DNA from: a virus
DNA length: 64,000 nt
Reading direction: 5' to 3' (one strand)
Virus record (IMG/VR): IMGVR_UViG_3300033553_000338
Coordinates: 93,881 to 157,880 of that record
Positions 47,456 through 51,037 of the stretch are shown here, piece after piece. The translations under genes and the position numbers were made by a program. The stretch's first letter is position 1; each line of letters begins with the position of its first letter. Under the pieces are notes generated by a model. The model was not told where the DNA came from. It did not search any database and saw nothing but the letters and a program-made list of their open reading frames with translations.

Positions 47456-47607
47456 GCCTAACGGGTCAGGGCTATATGTCGTTTCAACCGGCATACCGAG
47501 GTCACGAATGGATGTTCAGGTTTAAATGACATATCAGCTAGTGTTGTGCTGCGTTCGATTCGTCATTCACATAATTATGGACAAAGCGTAGCCCTGGCCC
47601 GTTGGGT
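47456..47607 (+). repeat. attC-like site 3 (compound/nested)
   Basis: AACGGGTCAGGGCTA / TAGCCCTGGCCCGTT outer pair; GCTATATGTCGTTT / AAATGACATATCAGC inner pair with extra GTT at 47543. Confidence 0.7.
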
Positions 47608-47654
47608 TTCATTCAAAAAAAAAACGAGAATTAAAATTTTTTAAACTTTAGTAT

Positions 47655-48047
47655 ATGGAAAAAGAATATCAAACAGCTAGCTTGAATGAACTTAGTTCCC
47701 AGTTAGCAGAATTTCAAGTAAGGATGGGATTCACAGATTCAAGCATAACGCAAAGACTTATGCTAGTTCATTCCGAGGTATCAGAAGCCTTTGAGGCGTT
47801 TAGAAGAGATCGTTACGCAAGGGTTAAAAACTATATTGAGGGATACGATCACCAAGATAATTTAGAACAGAAAAAAGCCGGATTTGAGCTGCACATTAAA
47901 GACTCGTTTGAAGATGAAATCGCTGATTCGATTATAAGGCTTCTGGCTCTTTGCGGTGAAAACAACATTGACATTGAGAAGCATATACAGTTAAAAATGC
48001 GTTACAATGAAATGCGAGGCTTCAAGTATGGAGGTAAAAAATTTTAA
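47655..48047 (+). CDS. cassette gene, MazG-like NTP pyrophosphohydrolase
   Basis: LMLVHSEVSEAFEA, EDEIADSIIRLL, KMRYN..R..KYGGKKF. Confidence 0.85.
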   Translation: MEKEYQTASLNELSSQLAEFQVRMGFTDSSITQRLMLVHSEVSEAFEAFRRDRYARVKNYIEGYDHQDNLEQKKAGFELHIKDSFEDEIADSIIRLLALCGENNIDIEKHIQLKMRYNEMRGFKYGGKKF

Positions 48048-48092
48048 TGAAGTGATTTTGGCTTCGTGGCTCCTGCCAACGAAGCGTATGAA

Positions 48093-48212
48093 ACCCAACG
48101 GTTTGGCTAAACGCTGGCCGATCATAGACCCATCAAAAAAGAAAGAACGATGAAAAATAAGACAGACATTTCCGAGAATAACGAACGGCTTGCGTTTGAG
48201 CCTGTGTTATAT
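48093..48212 (+). repeat. attC-like site 4
   Basis: CCCAAC-ggttt-GGCTAAACGCTGGCCG / CGGCTTGCGTTTGAGCC-tgt-GTTATAT. Confidence 0.75.
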
Positions 48213-48506
48213 GACCGTTTGCTTTTGGAGGGGGAATCCTTCTGGCAACATCATAACAGGCTCACATTATTTGAAATCCAAGATGCTATTAATGTGATGA
48301 AGATTAGCGGGAGGCTGCCTGACTGTATGTGGGAGGACTTGCAACATATACACGCAACCAATTACGGCACTTTTTACAACCTGACAAAGAGAATGATTGA
48401 TGCCGATTACCCAGGCGTGTTTACGAAGATAAAACCGAATAGAGACTTTCTTCAGTGGATTTACGAAGGCGTTAAGGCAGCAGCAGGAAAAGCAAACGTC
48501 ATATAA
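48150..48506 (+). CDS. hypothetical protein starting inside site 4 and reading into the next cassette
   Basis: ATG in hairpin loop, crosses GTT at 48206, stop in CATATAAC. Confidence 0.7.
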   Translation: MKNKTDISENNERLAFEPVLYDRLLLEGESFWQHHNRLTLFEIQDAINVMKISGRLPDCMWEDLQHIHATNYGTFYNLTKRMIDADYPGVFTKIKPNRDFLQWIYEGVKAAAGKANVI

Positions 48507-48630
48507 CGTTGGTGTATGCACCTGTTGGCTTTTAATTAGAATTACTAAACTTTAAATACCTAATAAGATGAACAAAGAAAACCAAACTACAAATAACAGC
48601 AAGCCAATGGCGTATGATACGTTGTTATAT
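48501..48630 (+). repeat. attC-like site 5
   Basis: ATATAAC-gttg-GTGTATGCACCTGTTGGCTT / AAGCCAATGGCGTATGATAC-gtt-GTTATAT. Confidence 0.75.
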
Positions 48631-48666
48631 ACTGGCACGGATTAAGAACTAAAAACTTTAAAAAAA

Positions 48667-48999
48667 ATGGATTTAAGAATTGAAACAATATTTGCGGAAC
48701 AAATGAAAGGAGATACATCTTTTCAAGAAAAAGAAAGTGGTTTAAGCCTATTATTTGGTGGCACAAGTTACAATAAGCACGAAATGAGAGAAACTTGGGA
48801 TAATGGAATAAAGTACGGAATAGAAATAGGTTTAAATGTAGCAAGTTTAGAAGGGCAAAAAATTGAATTAAACCACAATACACCAGATGGAAAGAATAAA
48901 GAATTTCTTGAAAAGTTTTATAGACTTGCGGAAGAATATAAATGTGCAATACAGTATCATCCGCAAAAAGGAATGGTTGTATTAGACCGAGAATATTAG
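48667..48999 (+). CDS. cassette gene, hypothetical protein
   Basis: Flanked by GTTATATAC / GTATATAAC. Confidence 0.75.
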   Translation: MDLRIETIFAEQMKGDTSFQEKESGLSLLFGGTSYNKHEMRETWDNGIKYGIEIGLNVASLEGQKIELNHNTPDGKNKEFLEKFYRLAEEYKCAIQYHPQKGMVVLDREY

Positions 49000-49006
49000 T
49001 GATTGT

Positions 49007-49059
49007 ATATAACGTTGAGTATAAACGGTCGTTTTAATGCCGTTTATACATTGTTGTGT
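49007..49059 (+). repeat. attC-like site 6 (minimal, ~53 bp)
   Basis: ATATAAC-gttga-GTATAAACGG / CCGTTTATAC-att-GTTGTGT. Confidence 0.8.
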
Positions 49060-49168
49060 GTCTGTGGGCGGTGATTTAGCAGTAAACTTCTTTTGAAATA
49101 CAGAACCAAAAAAGAAAAAAGGGGAGGGGAAAACTTTATAGAGTACCTAATTTAATAAATATAATACA

Positions 49169-49477
49169 ATGAAAGTATTAACAGAAGGTCACAAGTACCA
49201 ATTGAGCGGATTTGAGAACGCTGAAAACACTCAAGAAATTCAATTCATTGAGAAAACGCCAATTGAAGGCACAAGTGAATTGAAAACGGTAAATGATGGA
49301 ACAACTAACGAGGAACTTCTTGAAGTCTTAATTGACCGAATGAATTACCTACAAGGAAAATTCCCTTGCCGTGAAAATGCTCTTGTAATTACCAAACTTC
49401 AAGAATCTTTGATGTGGTTAGAAAAACGAACTTCTGACCGTAAAAAGCGAAATGTAGAAGGTAAGCAACTGGCTTAA
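49169..49477 (+). CDS. tad1: cassette gene, Tad1-family anti-Thoeris/CBASS signal sponge
   Basis: H.Y..IQF..GTTNEELLEVLIDRMNYLQGKFPCRENALVITKLQESLMWLEKRTSDRKKRNVEG resembles the Tad1 C-terminal helical hairpin as I recall it. Confidence 0.85.
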   Translation: MKVLTEGHKYQLSGFENAENTQEIQFIEKTPIEGTSELKTVNDGTTNEELLEVLIDRMNYLQGKFPCRENALVITKLQESLMWLEKRTSDRKKRNVEGKQLA

Positions 49478-49554
49478 AGTTTTGTGAGCGTGGGCTTTTT
49501 CTTTTTCGATTATTAGCAGAAATGTTGATTTGAAAAACGGATTTAGCCCATTGC

Positions 49555-49840
49555 ACACAACGGTCTGGCGGTTTGTTGTCGGTTGCCGTTACAATAAACG
49601 ACTAAGTTGATGCGAATAAATAACTTAACAAATTACGCGCGATGGATAGACCTACAAAAATTACAGTAATTGAAAAGAATGATGGTTATGAAATCATTTG
49701 CATGGATGAAATGTCTGGAAGTTCAATTGGAGTTGATTTGCCTGTTAATGGATATAAAGCATTAGCCGAACATTTTAAAACCGGTGCGATGGAAATTAGT
49801 TCAGACGAGCTGGGCAACTGCAATAAACCGCATGTTAGCC
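49555..49840 (+). repeat. attC-like site 7 with ~220-nt coding loop
   Basis: ACACAAC-ggtctg-GCGGTTTGTTGTCGGTTGCC / GGCAACTGCAATAAACCGC-at-GTTAGCC. Confidence 0.75.
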
Positions 49841-50001
49841 CATCGTTGATCCCAATTGACGAGACGTTTAACAATTGGAGATTTAATTATTCAGAATTTG
49901 GAGCAGTAGATAAAGGTGAAGATTTTAAGAAAGGATTACAAACAGGAACTTGGGCTGGTTATAATTACGCACGTGTAAGGATTAAAAACAATGAGGGCTA
50001 A
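49642..50001 (+). CDS. chimeric hypothetical protein (site-7 loop + 169-bp cassette)
   Basis: First 64 codons lie in site 7; junction CAT|GTT AGC; stop in GGGCTAAC. Confidence 0.7.
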   Translation: MDRPTKITVIEKNDGYEIICMDEMSGSSIGVDLPVNGYKALAEHFKTGAMEISSDELGNCNKPHVSPSLIPIDETFNNWRFNYSEFGAVDKGEDFKKGLQTGTWAGYNYARVRIKNNEG

Positions 50002-50058
50002 CGCTGTGTGTATGGTGTCGGCTGACGATAGGAAGCTGCACTATACACGATGTTACCT
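49996..50058 (+). repeat. attC-like site 8
   Basis: GGCTAAC-gctgt-GTGTATGGTGTCGGCT / AGCTGCACTATACAC-gat-GTTACCT. Confidence 0.8.
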
Positions 50059-50084
50059 ACTGTACGGCTTATTAAAACGAAAAT

Positions 50085-50816
50085 ATGATTAGAAACACGA
50101 TACATAAAGGGGATTGCCTTGAATTGATGCCGAAACTTATTGAAGATAAAAGCATTGATATGATTTTTTGCGATTTACCATACGGAACTACAAAATGTAA
50201 ATGGGATAGTGTAATTGACTTACCTAAATTGTGGAGCGAATACGAGAGAGTAATTAAAGATAATGGCGTTATTCTATTATTTGCACAAAGCCCATTTGAT
50301 AAAGTACTTGGAGCGAGCAACCTAAATCTACTGAAGTATGAATGGATTTGGGAGAAAACTTCTGCCACAGGACATTTGAACGCTAAAAAGATGCCAATGA
50401 AAGCACACGAGAACTTGTTGGTTTTTTATAAGAACCCTCCAATTTATAACCCACAAAAAACAAGTGGGCACGAAAGAAAGGTTAGTAAAGCAGAACATAA
50501 AACCAACTGCAAGGAAAGTGAAGTGTATAATAAAGGGCAGAAGTTGACGACCTATGACAGCACCGAGAGATACCCAAGAAGCGTACAGGTTTTTGCGAGC
50601 GATAAACAGAAGGTAAAACTTCATAGCACACAAAAGCCATTATCTTTAATTGAGTATATGATAAAAACCTATACCAATGAAGGAGATTTGATACTTGACA
50701 ATGCTTGTGGAAGCGGAACTACTGGACTTGGAGCAAAAAATCTTAAACGAGATTATATAATGATGGAGCAAGACCCTGACATTTACGAAATTGCCTGTAA
50801 AAGAGTACTAACGTAG
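50085..50816 (+). CDS. cassette gene, N6-adenine/N4-cytosine DNA methyltransferase (beta class)
   Basis: GDCLELM, CDLPYG, WIWEK, HSTQKP, LDNACGSGTT. Confidence 0.92.
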   Translation: MIRNTIHKGDCLELMPKLIEDKSIDMIFCDLPYGTTKCKWDSVIDLPKLWSEYERVIKDNGVILLFAQSPFDKVLGASNLNLLKYEWIWEKTSATGHLNAKKMPMKAHENLLVFYKNPPIYNPQKTSGHERKVSKAEHKTNCKESEVYNKGQKLTTYDSTERYPRSVQVFASDKQKVKLHSTQKPLSLIEYMIKTYTNEGDLILDNACGSGTTGLGAKNLKRDYIMMEQDPDIYEIACKRVLT

Positions 50817-50822
50817 TATTGC

Positions 50823-51037
50823 AGGTAACGCTAAGTATAACAAACGAAAAATTTACGACTTATGAAAACGCATTTAATTAAAGAAGAGTACAATACAGGT
50901 GAAAGAATTACGCATTTTAAGACAAGATGTGGTAAGATTAGGCACGTAATAACGAACCTACCGAACACCAAAGACAAGGATAAGGTTACTTGCAAGATAT
51001 GTAAGTAAATTTTATGTTTTGTTATACAATGTTGGGT
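50823..51037 (+). repeat. attC-like site 9 with a complete ORF in its loop
   Basis: AGGTAAC-gctaa-GTATAACAAACGAAAAATTTAC / GTAAATTTTATGTTTTGTTATAC-aat-GTTGGGT. Confidence 0.75.
50862..51008 (+). CDS. 48-aa Zn-finger-like peptide inside site 9 (not in ORF track)
   Basis: MKTHLI...TRCG...KDKVTCKICK*. Confidence 0.55.
   Translation: MKTHLIKEEYNTGERITHFKTRCGKIRHVITNLPNTKDKDKVTCKICK

What the first reader, a model, noticed from the sequence alone, without database searches (positions are those of the whole stretch)
47601..50829. Cassette cargo is enriched in counter-defence genes (Tad1, MazG-like, DNA methyltransferase)
Seen: the three recognisable cassettes encode a Tad1-like protein (49169), a MazG-like pyrophosphohydrolase (47655) and an orphan beta-class MTase (50085). 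Known: Tad1 sequesters Thoeris/CBASS signals, phage MazG-like enzymes can deplete nucleotide signals, and orphan MTases protect against restriction. Bacterial integrons often carry anti-phage cassettes. Inference: this is the mirror image, a phage anti-defence cassette bank. The unknown cassette genes (46880, 47176, 48150, 48667, 49642, 50862) are therefore prime candidates for new anti-defence proteins.
Basis: partly seen in the sequence, partly recalled or inferred. Interest (0 to 1): 0.8.

Follow-up and report, generated by a model that had tools for sequence, protein, structure and literature searches.

The report
Phage gene cassettes carrying counter-defence genes
A large phage carries an integron-like row of swappable gene cassettes, and its recognisable cargo (a Tad1 signal sponge, an orphan DNA methylase, a MazG-like enzyme) is of the kind phages use against bacterial immunity; the same cassettes occur in unrelated phages.

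Summary
ORF 49169-49477 is a Tad1-family sponge: it matches solved Tad1 at E 6e-13, its confident model finds only Tad1 structures, and the cyclic-trinucleotide, hexamer and three of four gcADPR-site residues are conserved. ORF 47655-48047 is a MazG-like pyrophosphatase with an intact EXXE...EXXD motif. ORF 50085-50816 is an orphan beta-class N6/N4 DNA methylase.

Each gene sits in a unit that starts GTT..., ends ...AAC and has complementary ends. The units are separated by imperfect AAC-hairpin-GTT (attC-like) sites. Three cassettes recur in otherwise unrelated phage DNA, and homology stops at these cores: Tad1 (91-93% nt, at least four backbones), the methylase (Cellulophaga phage phi13:2) and unknown ORF 48667. 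No tyrosine recombinase is encoded, so this is a CALIN-type array.

In other arrays nearly all recognisable cargo is DNA methylases (seven of about 64 non-bait ORFs). All four PF01555/PF00145 methylase matches of one 84-kb phage lie in its array region.

Counter-defence enrichment is therefore supported for methylases and Tad1. It is plausible but untested for MazG, and untested for the roughly 85% of cargo with no known function. Qi et al. 2023 already described phage CALINs with methylases, so this is a new variant of a known kind.

The parts
47156..47462 (+). Cassette holding unknown ORF 47176-47451 (91 aa, basic). It has a degenerate opening core GTAGGCACAGTTAA and closes with TTAACTGTGCCTAAC.
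   Evidence: The ends are complementary over about 14 nt, read directly. One distant homologue in Vibrio phage vB_CoeS_P1.
47460..47603 (+). attC-like site S3 (GCCTAAC ... GTTGGGT), a 144-nt imperfect hairpin.
   Evidence: ssDNA fold -27.5 kcal/mol, z -4.3. Detected by the site finder.
47601..48099 (+). MazG cassette, with the gene at 47655-48047.
   Evidence: 12-nt complementary ends GTTGGGTTTCAT / ATGAAACCCAAC. phrog_3301 E 1.5e-23. MazG-like genes are also flanked by attC-like sites in L079 and followed by them in L077.
48097..48208 (+). attC-like site S4. Its loop holds the start codon and first 19 codons of ORF 48150.
   Evidence: Arms GGTTTGGCTAAACGC / GCGTTTGAGCC (z -2.4). The left arm is identical to the one in the site upstream of Tad1 in L001.
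48206..48507 (+). Cassette holding the conserved part of unknown ORF 48150-48506.
   Evidence: Ends GTTATATGAC / GTCATATAAC. Homologues cover residues 21-108 only.
48505..48626 (+). attC-like site S5 (weak hairpin).
   Evidence: Site finder. The fold is not better than shuffles, z -0.6.
48624..49013 (+). Cassette holding unknown ORF 48667-48999 (110 aa), a member of a widespread conserved family.
   Evidence: Ends GTTATATAC / GTATATAAC. 84% nt homology to L114 is confined to 48617-49014. 304 homologues were found; the 120 best listed are 69-95% identical and none has a Pfam domain.
49011..49055 (+). attC-like site S6, a 45-nt hairpin.
   Evidence: Fold z -3.4. The same hairpin lies upstream of Tad1 in L002. 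L001 has a variant with compensatory stem changes (GTATA/TATAC becomes GGCTA/TAGCC).
49053..49561 (+). Tad1 cassette, with the gene at 49169-49477.
   Evidence: Ends GTTGTGTG / CACACAAC. Homology of 91-93.5% nt to L001-L007 stops at AAC 49011 or GTT 49053 on the left, and at or within 14 nt after AAC 49559-61 on the right. Tad1 identity.
49559..49836 (+). attC-like site S7 with a long loop that encodes the N-terminal 65 aa of ORF 49642.
   Evidence: Arms GCGGTTT / AAACCGC, site finder. The N-terminal module is 92% identical to P0122 and diverges at the codon over GTT 49834.
49834..50002 (+). Short cassette encoding the C-terminal third of ORF 49642-50001.
   Evidence: Ends GTTAGCCC / GGGCTAAC. 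The stop codon lies within the closing core sequence CTAAC.
50000..50054 (+). attC-like site S8, a 55-nt hairpin.
   Evidence: Fold z -2.6. Same design as the site upstream of the methylase in phage phi13:2.
50052..50829 (+). Methylase cassette, with the gene at 50085-50816 (orphan beta-class N6/N4 DNA methylase).
   Evidence: N6_N4_Mtase E 1.7e-29. 81.6% nt homology to Cellulophaga phage phi13:2 gp036 is confined to 50042-50829, with the same ends GTTACCT...GCAGGTAAC.
50827..51033 (+). attC-like site S9. Its loop holds the whole 48-aa ORF 50862-51008. A 29-bp gene-less unit follows at 51031-51059.
   Evidence: Arms GTATAACAAA / TTTGTTATAC ([I8], 5, 38).

Best explanation
47601-50829 is the core of a CALIN-type array, that is, a cluster of integron attC-like sites with no integron integrase. 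It lies in a 157.9-kb phage genome with direct terminal repeats, and the phage's kin point to Bacteroidota hosts.

Structure (shown). Each cassette runs from a GTT core to an AAC core, and its two ends are complementary. That is the signature expected if the unit can close into a circle across an attC site. Cassettes are separated by imperfect AAC-hairpin-GTT sites.

Mobility (shown by comparison). Cassettes move as discrete units between otherwise unrelated phage genomes, with crossover points at the AAC and GTT cores.

Cargo identity (shown by sequence and fold) and function (inferred from family knowledge):
- A Tad1-family sponge, expected to form a hexamer and soak up gcADPR and cyclic di- or trinucleotide alarm signals of Thoeris and CBASS.
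- An orphan beta-class N6/N4 DNA methylase, expected to modify phage DNA against restriction.
- A MazG-like NTP pyrophosphohydrolase. It may deplete a nucleotide alarmone or signal as Atd1 does, or it may simply clean the nucleotide pool.

Enrichment (shown by tally, but only for recognisable genes). Across arrays the recognisable cargo is dominated by DNA methylases, so the array works as an exchangeable store of counter-defence genes.

Recombinase (unknown). The phage encodes no tyrosine recombinase. A host integron integrase acting during infection is the leading guess.
For: Gene identities.

Tad1 functional residues, mapped from the alignments onto the residues named in 10.1101/2023.11.15.567273:
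- CmTad1 cyclic-trinucleotide site: R88/T95 correspond to R68/T75; C87/A91/M92 to C67/A71/L72.
- Hexamer interface: K96, Q98, E99, M102, W103, K106 correspond to K76, Q78, E79, M82, W83, K86. All are kept.
- CbTad1 gcADPR site: N92, R109, R113 correspond to N70, R87, R91. R87 is invariant and R91 nearly invariant in 41 relatives. F82 is replaced by L61.

Cassette anatomy. The sites are not terminator-like.

Mobility:
- Tad1 cassette at 91-93.5% nt in L001-L007, with no other DNA similarity in the 12-kb flanks apart from a 67.5% match between methylase genes in L002/L007. These lie in records of 84, 47, 38 and 36 kb.
- Methylase cassette in cultured phage phi13:2.
- ORF 48667 cassette in L114.
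- Tad1-like genes are also attC-flanked in a 55% GC phage, L054, and in an Arcicella MAG array, L099.

No PF00589 recombinase in G000, G002 or G003, all rated complete.

Cargo: of 30 array ORFs in G002 and G003 the Pfam hits were 2 C5, 2 N6_N4, 1 MT-A70 and 1 D12 methylase, plus DUF551 and a borderline Relaxase_C match. Of 34 further ORFs the hits were 1 MT-A70, DUF6527 and DpnD/PcfM. All four PF01555/PF00145 matches of the 84-kb G002 lie at 55053-64191, the array region, which is about 11% of the genome.

The same window also encodes two Tad2-like proteins. Precedents: PMC9892861 and Atd1.
Against: - No function was measured.
- The Tad1 Pfam score is 0.7 bit under the curated cut-off, the gcADPR-site aromatic F82 is L61 here, and the N-terminal sheet region is about 25 residues shorter than in solved Tad1.
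- Tad1 and MazG cassettes were found with those proteins as baits, so their recurrence overstates their share of cargo.
- About 85% of cargo is unannotated, so 'enriched' refers only to the recognisable minority.
- Methylases are also common cargo of bacterial integrons as parts of R-M systems.
- One C5 methylase of this phage lies outside the array, at window 16256-17761.
- Site S5 folds no better than shuffled sequence.
- The sites were judged with my own crude finder, not IntegronFinder or HattCI.
- Most of the 60 viral Tad1-like loci are not in detectable arrays.
- No integron integrase over the TIGR02249 cut-off was found in five Bacteroidota genomes that carry Tad1-like genes, so the enzyme that moves the cassettes is unidentified.
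Confidence: 0.72

Rival explanations
1. This is an ordinary phage accessory (early-gene) region. The hairpins are transcriptional or RNA-processing elements, and genes are shuffled by short-homology recombination, as with the promoter/stem-loop cassettes I recall from T4-type phages. Counter-defence genes are there only because such genes cluster in accessory regions anyway.
For: All ORFs are small, on the same strand and lower in GC than the rest of the window, 0.36-0.37 against about 0.42. Anti-defence genes also lie outside the array: two Tad2-like genes at 57 kb and a C5 methylase at 16 kb. Most Tad1-like genes elsewhere are not in detectable arrays.
Against: The hairpins lack T-tracts, and only 2 terminator-like hits were found against 3.3 expected. 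Repeats shared between sites are limited to AAC/GTT cores, too short for homologous exchange. Cassette ends are complementary to each other, not to their neighbours. Homology breaks fall on the cores in three independent cassettes. Core sequences such as GCCTAAC/GTTAGGC fit the integron RYYYAAC/GTTRRRY consensus. Phage attC sites of this kind were recombined by IntI1 in PMC9892861.
Confidence: 0.1
2. The array is a passively acquired piece of a bacterial integron cassette pool. Its cargo reflects what bacterial cassettes carry (R-M methylases, housekeeping MazG, unknowns) and was not selected for counter-defence in the phage.
For: A Tad1-like cassette sits in an Arcicella MAG contig, L099. That array has uniform sites of about 180 nt and bacterial-type cargo (DUF4132) on the opposite strand. 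Methylases are known integron cargo (PMC9892861).
Against: Tad1 is a phage counter-defence protein with no known use to a cell. The same cassettes recur in several complete phage genomes with high conservation. One 84-kb phage stacks five methylases of four families plus Tad1 in one array with no restriction enzyme recognised, which fits selection for anti-restriction. The L099 contig could itself be viral DNA binned into a MAG.
Confidence: 0.13
3. For the MazG cassette only: the enzyme is a nucleotide-pool housekeeping or auxiliary metabolic gene (dNTP sanitising or recycling), not a counter-defence factor.
For: A cyanophage MazG is a pyrophosphohydrolase that cannot hydrolyse ppGpp (PMC6850273, listed). 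MazG-like genes are widespread in phages of many hosts outside any array.
Against: A phage MazG-like enzyme, Atd1, depletes (p)ppGpp and protects against TIR-STING toxicity (10.1101/2022.06.09.495361). The gene recurs as an attC cassette next to sponge and methylase cassettes.
Confidence: 0.45

Closest known systems
[quoted passage not shown] 2023 (PMC9892861)
   Same: Same-strand cassettes separated by attC-type hairpins with RYYYAAC/GTTRRRY cores, and no integron integrase. They occur in virulent marine phages, including a Flavobacteriaceae phage (Polaribacter P12002L). DNA methylases of the N6_N4 family are cargo, and the authors suggest a benefit against host defence.
   Different: The array here is longer, about 10 units against 2-4. 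It carries a Tad1 sponge and a MazG-like enzyme. Direct comparative evidence shows single cassettes shared at 82-93% nt between unrelated phages. Crossovers are seen at both the AAC and the GTT side. Some site loops carry coding sequence.
Tad1 (Thoeris anti-defence 1), CbTad1 and CmTad1 (PDB 7uav, 8kbb; 10.1101/2023.11.15.567273)
   Same: Beta-sheet plus two-helix hairpin fold. The cyclic-trinucleotide site, hexamer interface and three of four gcADPR-site residues are conserved.
   Different: 102 aa against 123-138 aa, with a shorter N-terminal sheet region. L61 replaces F82. It is encoded in a mobile attC cassette of Bacteroidota-type phages rather than in Bacillus or Clostridium (pro)phages.
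Bacterial integrons as banks of anti-phage defence cassettes (10.1101/2024.07.02.601686; 10.1101/2024.07.02.601719)
   Same: The same cassette architecture is used to stockpile and shuffle small immunity-related genes.
   Different: Here the owner is the phage and the cargo is counter-defence. No integrase, attI or Pc is present.
Atd1, a phage MazG-like pyrophosphatase (10.1101/2022.06.09.495361)
   Same: A small all-alpha MazG-type enzyme with EXXE...EXXD motifs, encoded beside methylases and other anti-defence genes.
   Different: No direct sequence comparison with Atd1 was made here, and the substrate is unknown.

Membership tests
Tad1 (Thoeris anti-defence 1) | Significant sequence similarity to experimentally characterised Tad1 | tested here: met
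   phmmer against PDB: 8kbb E 6.4e-13; 7uav and 8kbe E about 5e-10, over residues 38-99.
Tad1 (Thoeris anti-defence 1) | Pfam Acb2_Tad1_hairpin (PF24729) above the gathering score | tested here: inconclusive
   26.3 bits against a cut-off of 27, E 8.3e-6.
Tad1 (Thoeris anti-defence 1) | Fold: N-terminal antiparallel beta-sheet followed by two long helices | tested here: met
   AF2 pLDDT 94.5, strands 2-42 and helices 47-64 and 68-93. The top 20 Foldseek PDB hits are all Tad1, with no Acb2 among them.
Tad1 (Thoeris anti-defence 1) | Cyclic-trinucleotide site (CmTad1 R88, T95) and hexamer interface residues | tested here: met
   R68, T75, K76, Q78, E79, M82, W83 and K86 align to them.
Tad1 (Thoeris anti-defence 1) | gcADPR/cyclic-dinucleotide pocket (CbTad1 F82, N92, R109, R113) | tested here: inconclusive
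   N70, R87 and R91 are kept. F82 aligns to L61.
Tad1 (Thoeris anti-defence 1) | Binds the signals and rescues phage from Thoeris or CBASS | not testable with these tools
   Needs protein and phage assays.
MazG-like all-alpha NTP pyrophosphohydrolase | Profile match | tested here: inconclusive
   PHROG 3301 and 9236 'pyrophosphatase' at E 1.5e-23 and 1.2e-22, but Pfam PF12643 gives only 14.5 bits against a cut-off of 27. The PDB pyrophosphatase 4qgp matches at E 0.12.
MazG-like all-alpha NTP pyrophosphohydrolase | Metal-binding EXXE ... EXXD motif | tested here: met
   E41/E44 and E88/D91 read from the translation.
Beta-class N6/N4 DNA methyltransferase, orphan | PF01555 match, motif IV before motif I, no adjacent restriction enzyme | tested here: met
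   E 1.7e-29 over residues 24-237. DLPYG is N-terminal and CGSGTT C-terminal. The neighbours are ORFs of 119 and 48 aa with no family match.
Integron attC cassette array | Sites with inverse cores RYYYAAC ... GTTRRRY around an imperfect hairpin | tested here: met
   S3 GCCTAAC...GTTGGGT, S4 ACCCAAC..., S7 ...GTTAGCC, S9 ...GTTGGGT. ssDNA folds give z -4.3 to -2.4 for four of five sites; S5 gives -0.6.
Integron attC cassette array | Cassette ends complementary, and cassettes mobile as units with breaks at the cores | tested here: met
   The shuffle control gave 0 of 60.
Integron attC cassette array | Adjacent integron integrase with attI and Pc (complete integron) | tested here: not met
   No PF00589 match anywhere in the complete 157.9-kb genome. 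It is therefore filed as CALIN-type, not as an integron.
Integron attC cassette array | Detected by the IntegronFinder or HattCI attC models; recombined by IntI | not tested
   The models are not available here. Analogous phage sites were recombined by IntI1 in PMC9892861.

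The most novel reading that the evidence does not exclude
Bacteroidota-type phages share a common pool of attC cassettes that acts as an inter-phage market for counter-defence genes. Sponges, orphan methylases of several classes, MazG-like enzymes and many small unknown proteins move between unrelated phage backbones with no phage-encoded integrase. Crossovers occur on both sides of the hairpin, and sometimes inside reading frames, creating chimeric proteins. On this reading the unknown cassette families would largely be new anti-defence proteins. 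The best first candidate is the ORF 48667 family, with 304 homologues, the best 120 of them 69-95% identical.
Probability: 0.35. Interest if true: 0.85.

Novelty: new variant of a known kind. Interest (0 to 1): 0.66.

Why it matters
If phage attC arrays are stores of counter-defence genes, they offer a cheap sequence-only way to find new anti-defence proteins: collect whatever lies between attC sites in phage genomes.

They would also show a route by which a sponge such as Tad1 spreads between unrelated phages as a unit of about 500 bp. This is the counterpart of bacterial integrons that stockpile defence systems.

It raises a concrete open question: which enzyme moves cassettes in phages that encode no integrase?

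Tried and rejected
- ORF 48667: an AF2 model from 30 homologues reached only pLDDT 61.5, and Foldseek PDB gave nothing below E 0.7. The Atlas feature search returned only unnamed viral clusters.
- ORF 48150: no usable Atlas feature hit; structural rows had TM below 0.52 on a poor model.
- Pfam and PHROG gave nothing for ORFs 46847 (the GTG-start extension of 46880), 47176, 48150, 48667, 49642, 50862 and 51172.
- Close relatives of the whole phage, sought to compare homologous arrays: bait 52378-53235 found only six loci at 37% identity or less, so arrays were reached through cassette genes instead.
- Integron integrase: none over the TIGR02249 cut-off in five Bacteroidota genomes carrying Tad1-like genes. 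Phage phi13:2 gp038, next to its array, is a generic tyrosine recombinase, XerD-like at E 4e-7.
- Terminator reading of the hairpins rejected.
- ORF 49642 had no relatives in viral contigs by the pattern scan, though the protein search found 15 partial relatives.

Full report
**Setting.** The window is the last 64 kb of a single 157,880-bp viral record with direct terminal repeats, rated complete. Positions 46.5-51.2 kb hold a run of small same-strand ORFs with lower GC than the rest, 0.36-0.37 against about 0.42. The ORFs are separated by spacers of 45-200 nt.

**The three named genes.**

ORF 49169-49477 (102 aa):
- It matches Pfam Acb2_Tad1_hairpin just under the cut-off (26.3 against 27 bits, E 8e-6) and phrog_2428 at E 3e-24.
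- It matches solved Tad1 proteins at E 6e-13 to 5e-10 over residues 38-99.
- With an alignment of 41 relatives, AlphaFold gave pLDDT 94.5, with five strands followed by two long helices.
- The 20 significant Foldseek hits in the PDB are all Tad1 structures.
- I mapped the alignments onto the residues described in 10.1101/2023.11.15.567273. The cyclic-trinucleotide site (R68, T75) and all six hexamer-interface residues are kept. Three of the four gcADPR/cGAMP pocket residues (N70, R87, R91) are kept, and the fourth, F82 of CbTad1, is L61 here.

ORF 47655-48047 matches PHROG 'pyrophosphatase' families at E 1e-23. It carries E41xxE44 and E88xxD91, but its Pfam MazG-like score is weak.

ORF 50085-50816 is a clear N6_N4 DNA methylase (E 1.7e-29) with beta-class motif order and no restriction partner.

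**Are they cassettes?** Yes.
- Each gene lies in a unit that opens with GTT and closes with AAC, and the unit's ends are reverse complements. Examples are GTTGGGTTTCAT...ATGAAACCCAAC around MazG, GTTGTGTG...CACACAAC around Tad1 and GTTACCT...AGGTAAC around the methylase.
- Between units lie imperfect AAC-hairpin-GTT sites of 45-278 nt. Their cores fit the integron RYYYAAC/GTTRRRY consensus.
- Four of five sites tested fold better than shuffles as single-stranded DNA. They do not look like terminators.

**Comparative evidence, which is decisive.**
- Seven viral loci carry a Tad1 gene of 97-98% protein identity. Their DNA similarity to the window (91-93.5%) covers only 49005/49010/49052 to 49562/49567/49575. 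It starts at the AAC or the GTT of site S6 and stops at or within 14 nt after the AAC of S7, inside different flanks.
- Those loci lie in records of 84 kb and 47 kb (both complete), a 38-kb provirus and fragments of 36 and 64 kb. The 64-kb fragment (L007) has the same array as the 84-kb record, so I count at least four backbones.
- The methylase cassette is shared with cultured Cellulophaga phage phi13:2. Homology runs from 50042 to exactly 50829 and the end sequences are the same.
- The unknown ORF 48667 cassette is shared with a 55-kb phage contig over 48617-49014.
- MazG-like genes are attC-flanked in L079 and followed by attC-like sites in L077.
- A Tad1-like gene of 52% identity is attC-flanked in a phage of 55% GC. 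Another sits in an Arcicella MAG array with uniform sites of about 180 nt.
- My chain finder found no linked cassettes in 60 shuffled loci.

**No integrase.** No tyrosine recombinase is encoded by this phage or by the two other complete phages. The structure is therefore a CALIN, not a full integron.

**Is the cargo enriched for counter-defence?** I tabulated ORFs from the arrays of G002 and G003 (30 ORFs) and from L054, L077, L079 and phi13:2 (34 ORFs).
- Pfam recognised two C5, two N6_N4, two MT-A70 and one D12 methylase.
- Otherwise it recognised only domains of unknown function (DUF551, DUF6527, DpnD/PcfM) and one borderline Relaxase_C match.
- That is seven methylases among about 64 ORFs that were not search baits.
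- In the 84-kb phage all four PF01555/PF00145 matches lie at 55053-64191, the array region, about 11% of the genome. The same array adds an MT-A70 methylase and Tad1.
- In the present phage one methylase is in the array and one C5 methylase is outside it.

So the recognisable cargo is overwhelmingly anti-restriction plus a sponge. About 85% of cargo is unknown, and Tad1 and MazG recurrence is biased by how I found the loci.

**The unknown cassettes.**
- The ORF 48667 family is large and conserved, with 304 homologues, the best 120 of them 69-95% identical, and no Pfam domain. Its model was poor and matched nothing.
- For ORF 48150, homologues cover only residues 21-108, the part inside the cassette.
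- For ORF 49642, the first 65 residues are encoded in the loop of site S7. They are 92% identical to another protein that diverges exactly at the codon over the GTT core. This frame is therefore a junction product of two modules.

None of this shows function.

**Literature.**
- Qi et al. 2023 (PMC9892861) reported 17 CALINs in phages, including Polaribacter phage P12002L with two methylases and five methylase cassettes in all. They showed that IntI1 recombines phage attC sites and proposed a benefit against host defence.
- A MazG-like phage enzyme, Atd1, depletes (p)ppGpp and counters TIR-STING toxicity. A cyanophage MazG does not cleave ppGpp (PMC6850273).
- My two searches on attC arrays in phages listed no paper whose title or abstract describes a Tad1 or other sponge gene as an attC cassette.

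**Verdict.** It is a new variant of a known kind: the phage CALIN as a shared store of counter-defence genes, with a signal sponge as mobile cargo. The recombinase and the actual activities remain to be shown.

Noticed in passing
window 57022-57348 and 57359-57571: Two adjacent Tad2-like genes (Pfam PF11195, E 5.8e-21 and 6.8e-10, both over the cut-off), so this phage carries Tad1 plus two Tad2 homologues. In L008, DNA 76% identical to the first Tad2-like gene lies about 260 nt downstream of the Tad1-like gene.
   Followed up: partly
window 49642-50001, with GTT core at 49834-49836: The ORF is a chimera. Residues 1-65, encoded in the loop of site S7, are 92% identical to P0122 (121 aa), which diverges exactly after NKPHV, the codon overlapping the GTT core. 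Recombination at attC cores seems to swap protein C-termini.
   Followed up: partly
L004/L005 against window and L002, upstream of the Tad1 gene: The hairpin upstream of Tad1 travels with the downstream gene in some loci, with the break at AAC. In others it is replaced, with the break at GTT. Crossovers therefore occur on both sides of the site, unlike the single G|TT point of classical integrons. L001 shows compensatory stem changes.
   Followed up: partly
L099 (Arcicella sp. MAG contig, 11.6 kb): An array with very uniform sites of about 180 nt and cassettes of 0.6-2 kb, mostly on the opposite strand (one is DUF4132/DUF7737). A Tad1-like gene sits in one cassette. This is either a bacterial chromosomal array holding a phage sponge gene or a mis-binned viral contig.
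   Followed up: partly
L068 15002 to L069 4239 (G002, complete 84-kb phage): One array region stacks five DNA methylases of four families (two C5, two N6_N4, one MT-A70) plus Tad1 within about 9.3 kb.
   Followed up: yes
L073 (Cellulophaga phage phi13:2, KC821633, record 12.3-16.7 kb): A cultured phage has the same type of array (gp026-gp037). It is directly followed by a tyrosine recombinase, gp038, that is not an integron integrase by NCBIfam, and an ArdA anti-restriction gene lies about 3.6 kb beyond the recombinase. This is a usable experimental model.
   Followed up: partly
window 49479-49561: Inside the Tad1 cassette, the 3' untranslated part forms its own imperfect hairpin, GTTTTGTGAGCGTGGGCT...AGCCCATTGCACACAAC. 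This is a second GTT...AAC pair nested in the cassette and is conserved in L001-L007. Its meaning is unknown.
   Followed up: no
window 46880-47068: The cassette ORF is small (62 aa) and very acidic (pI 4.06, 19 D+E), which is compatible with a DNA-mimic type of anti-restriction protein. This is speculation from composition only.
   Followed up: no
window 16256-17761: A 501-aa ORF with a C5 cytosine DNA methylase match (PF00145, E 7e-26) lies outside the array.
   Followed up: no
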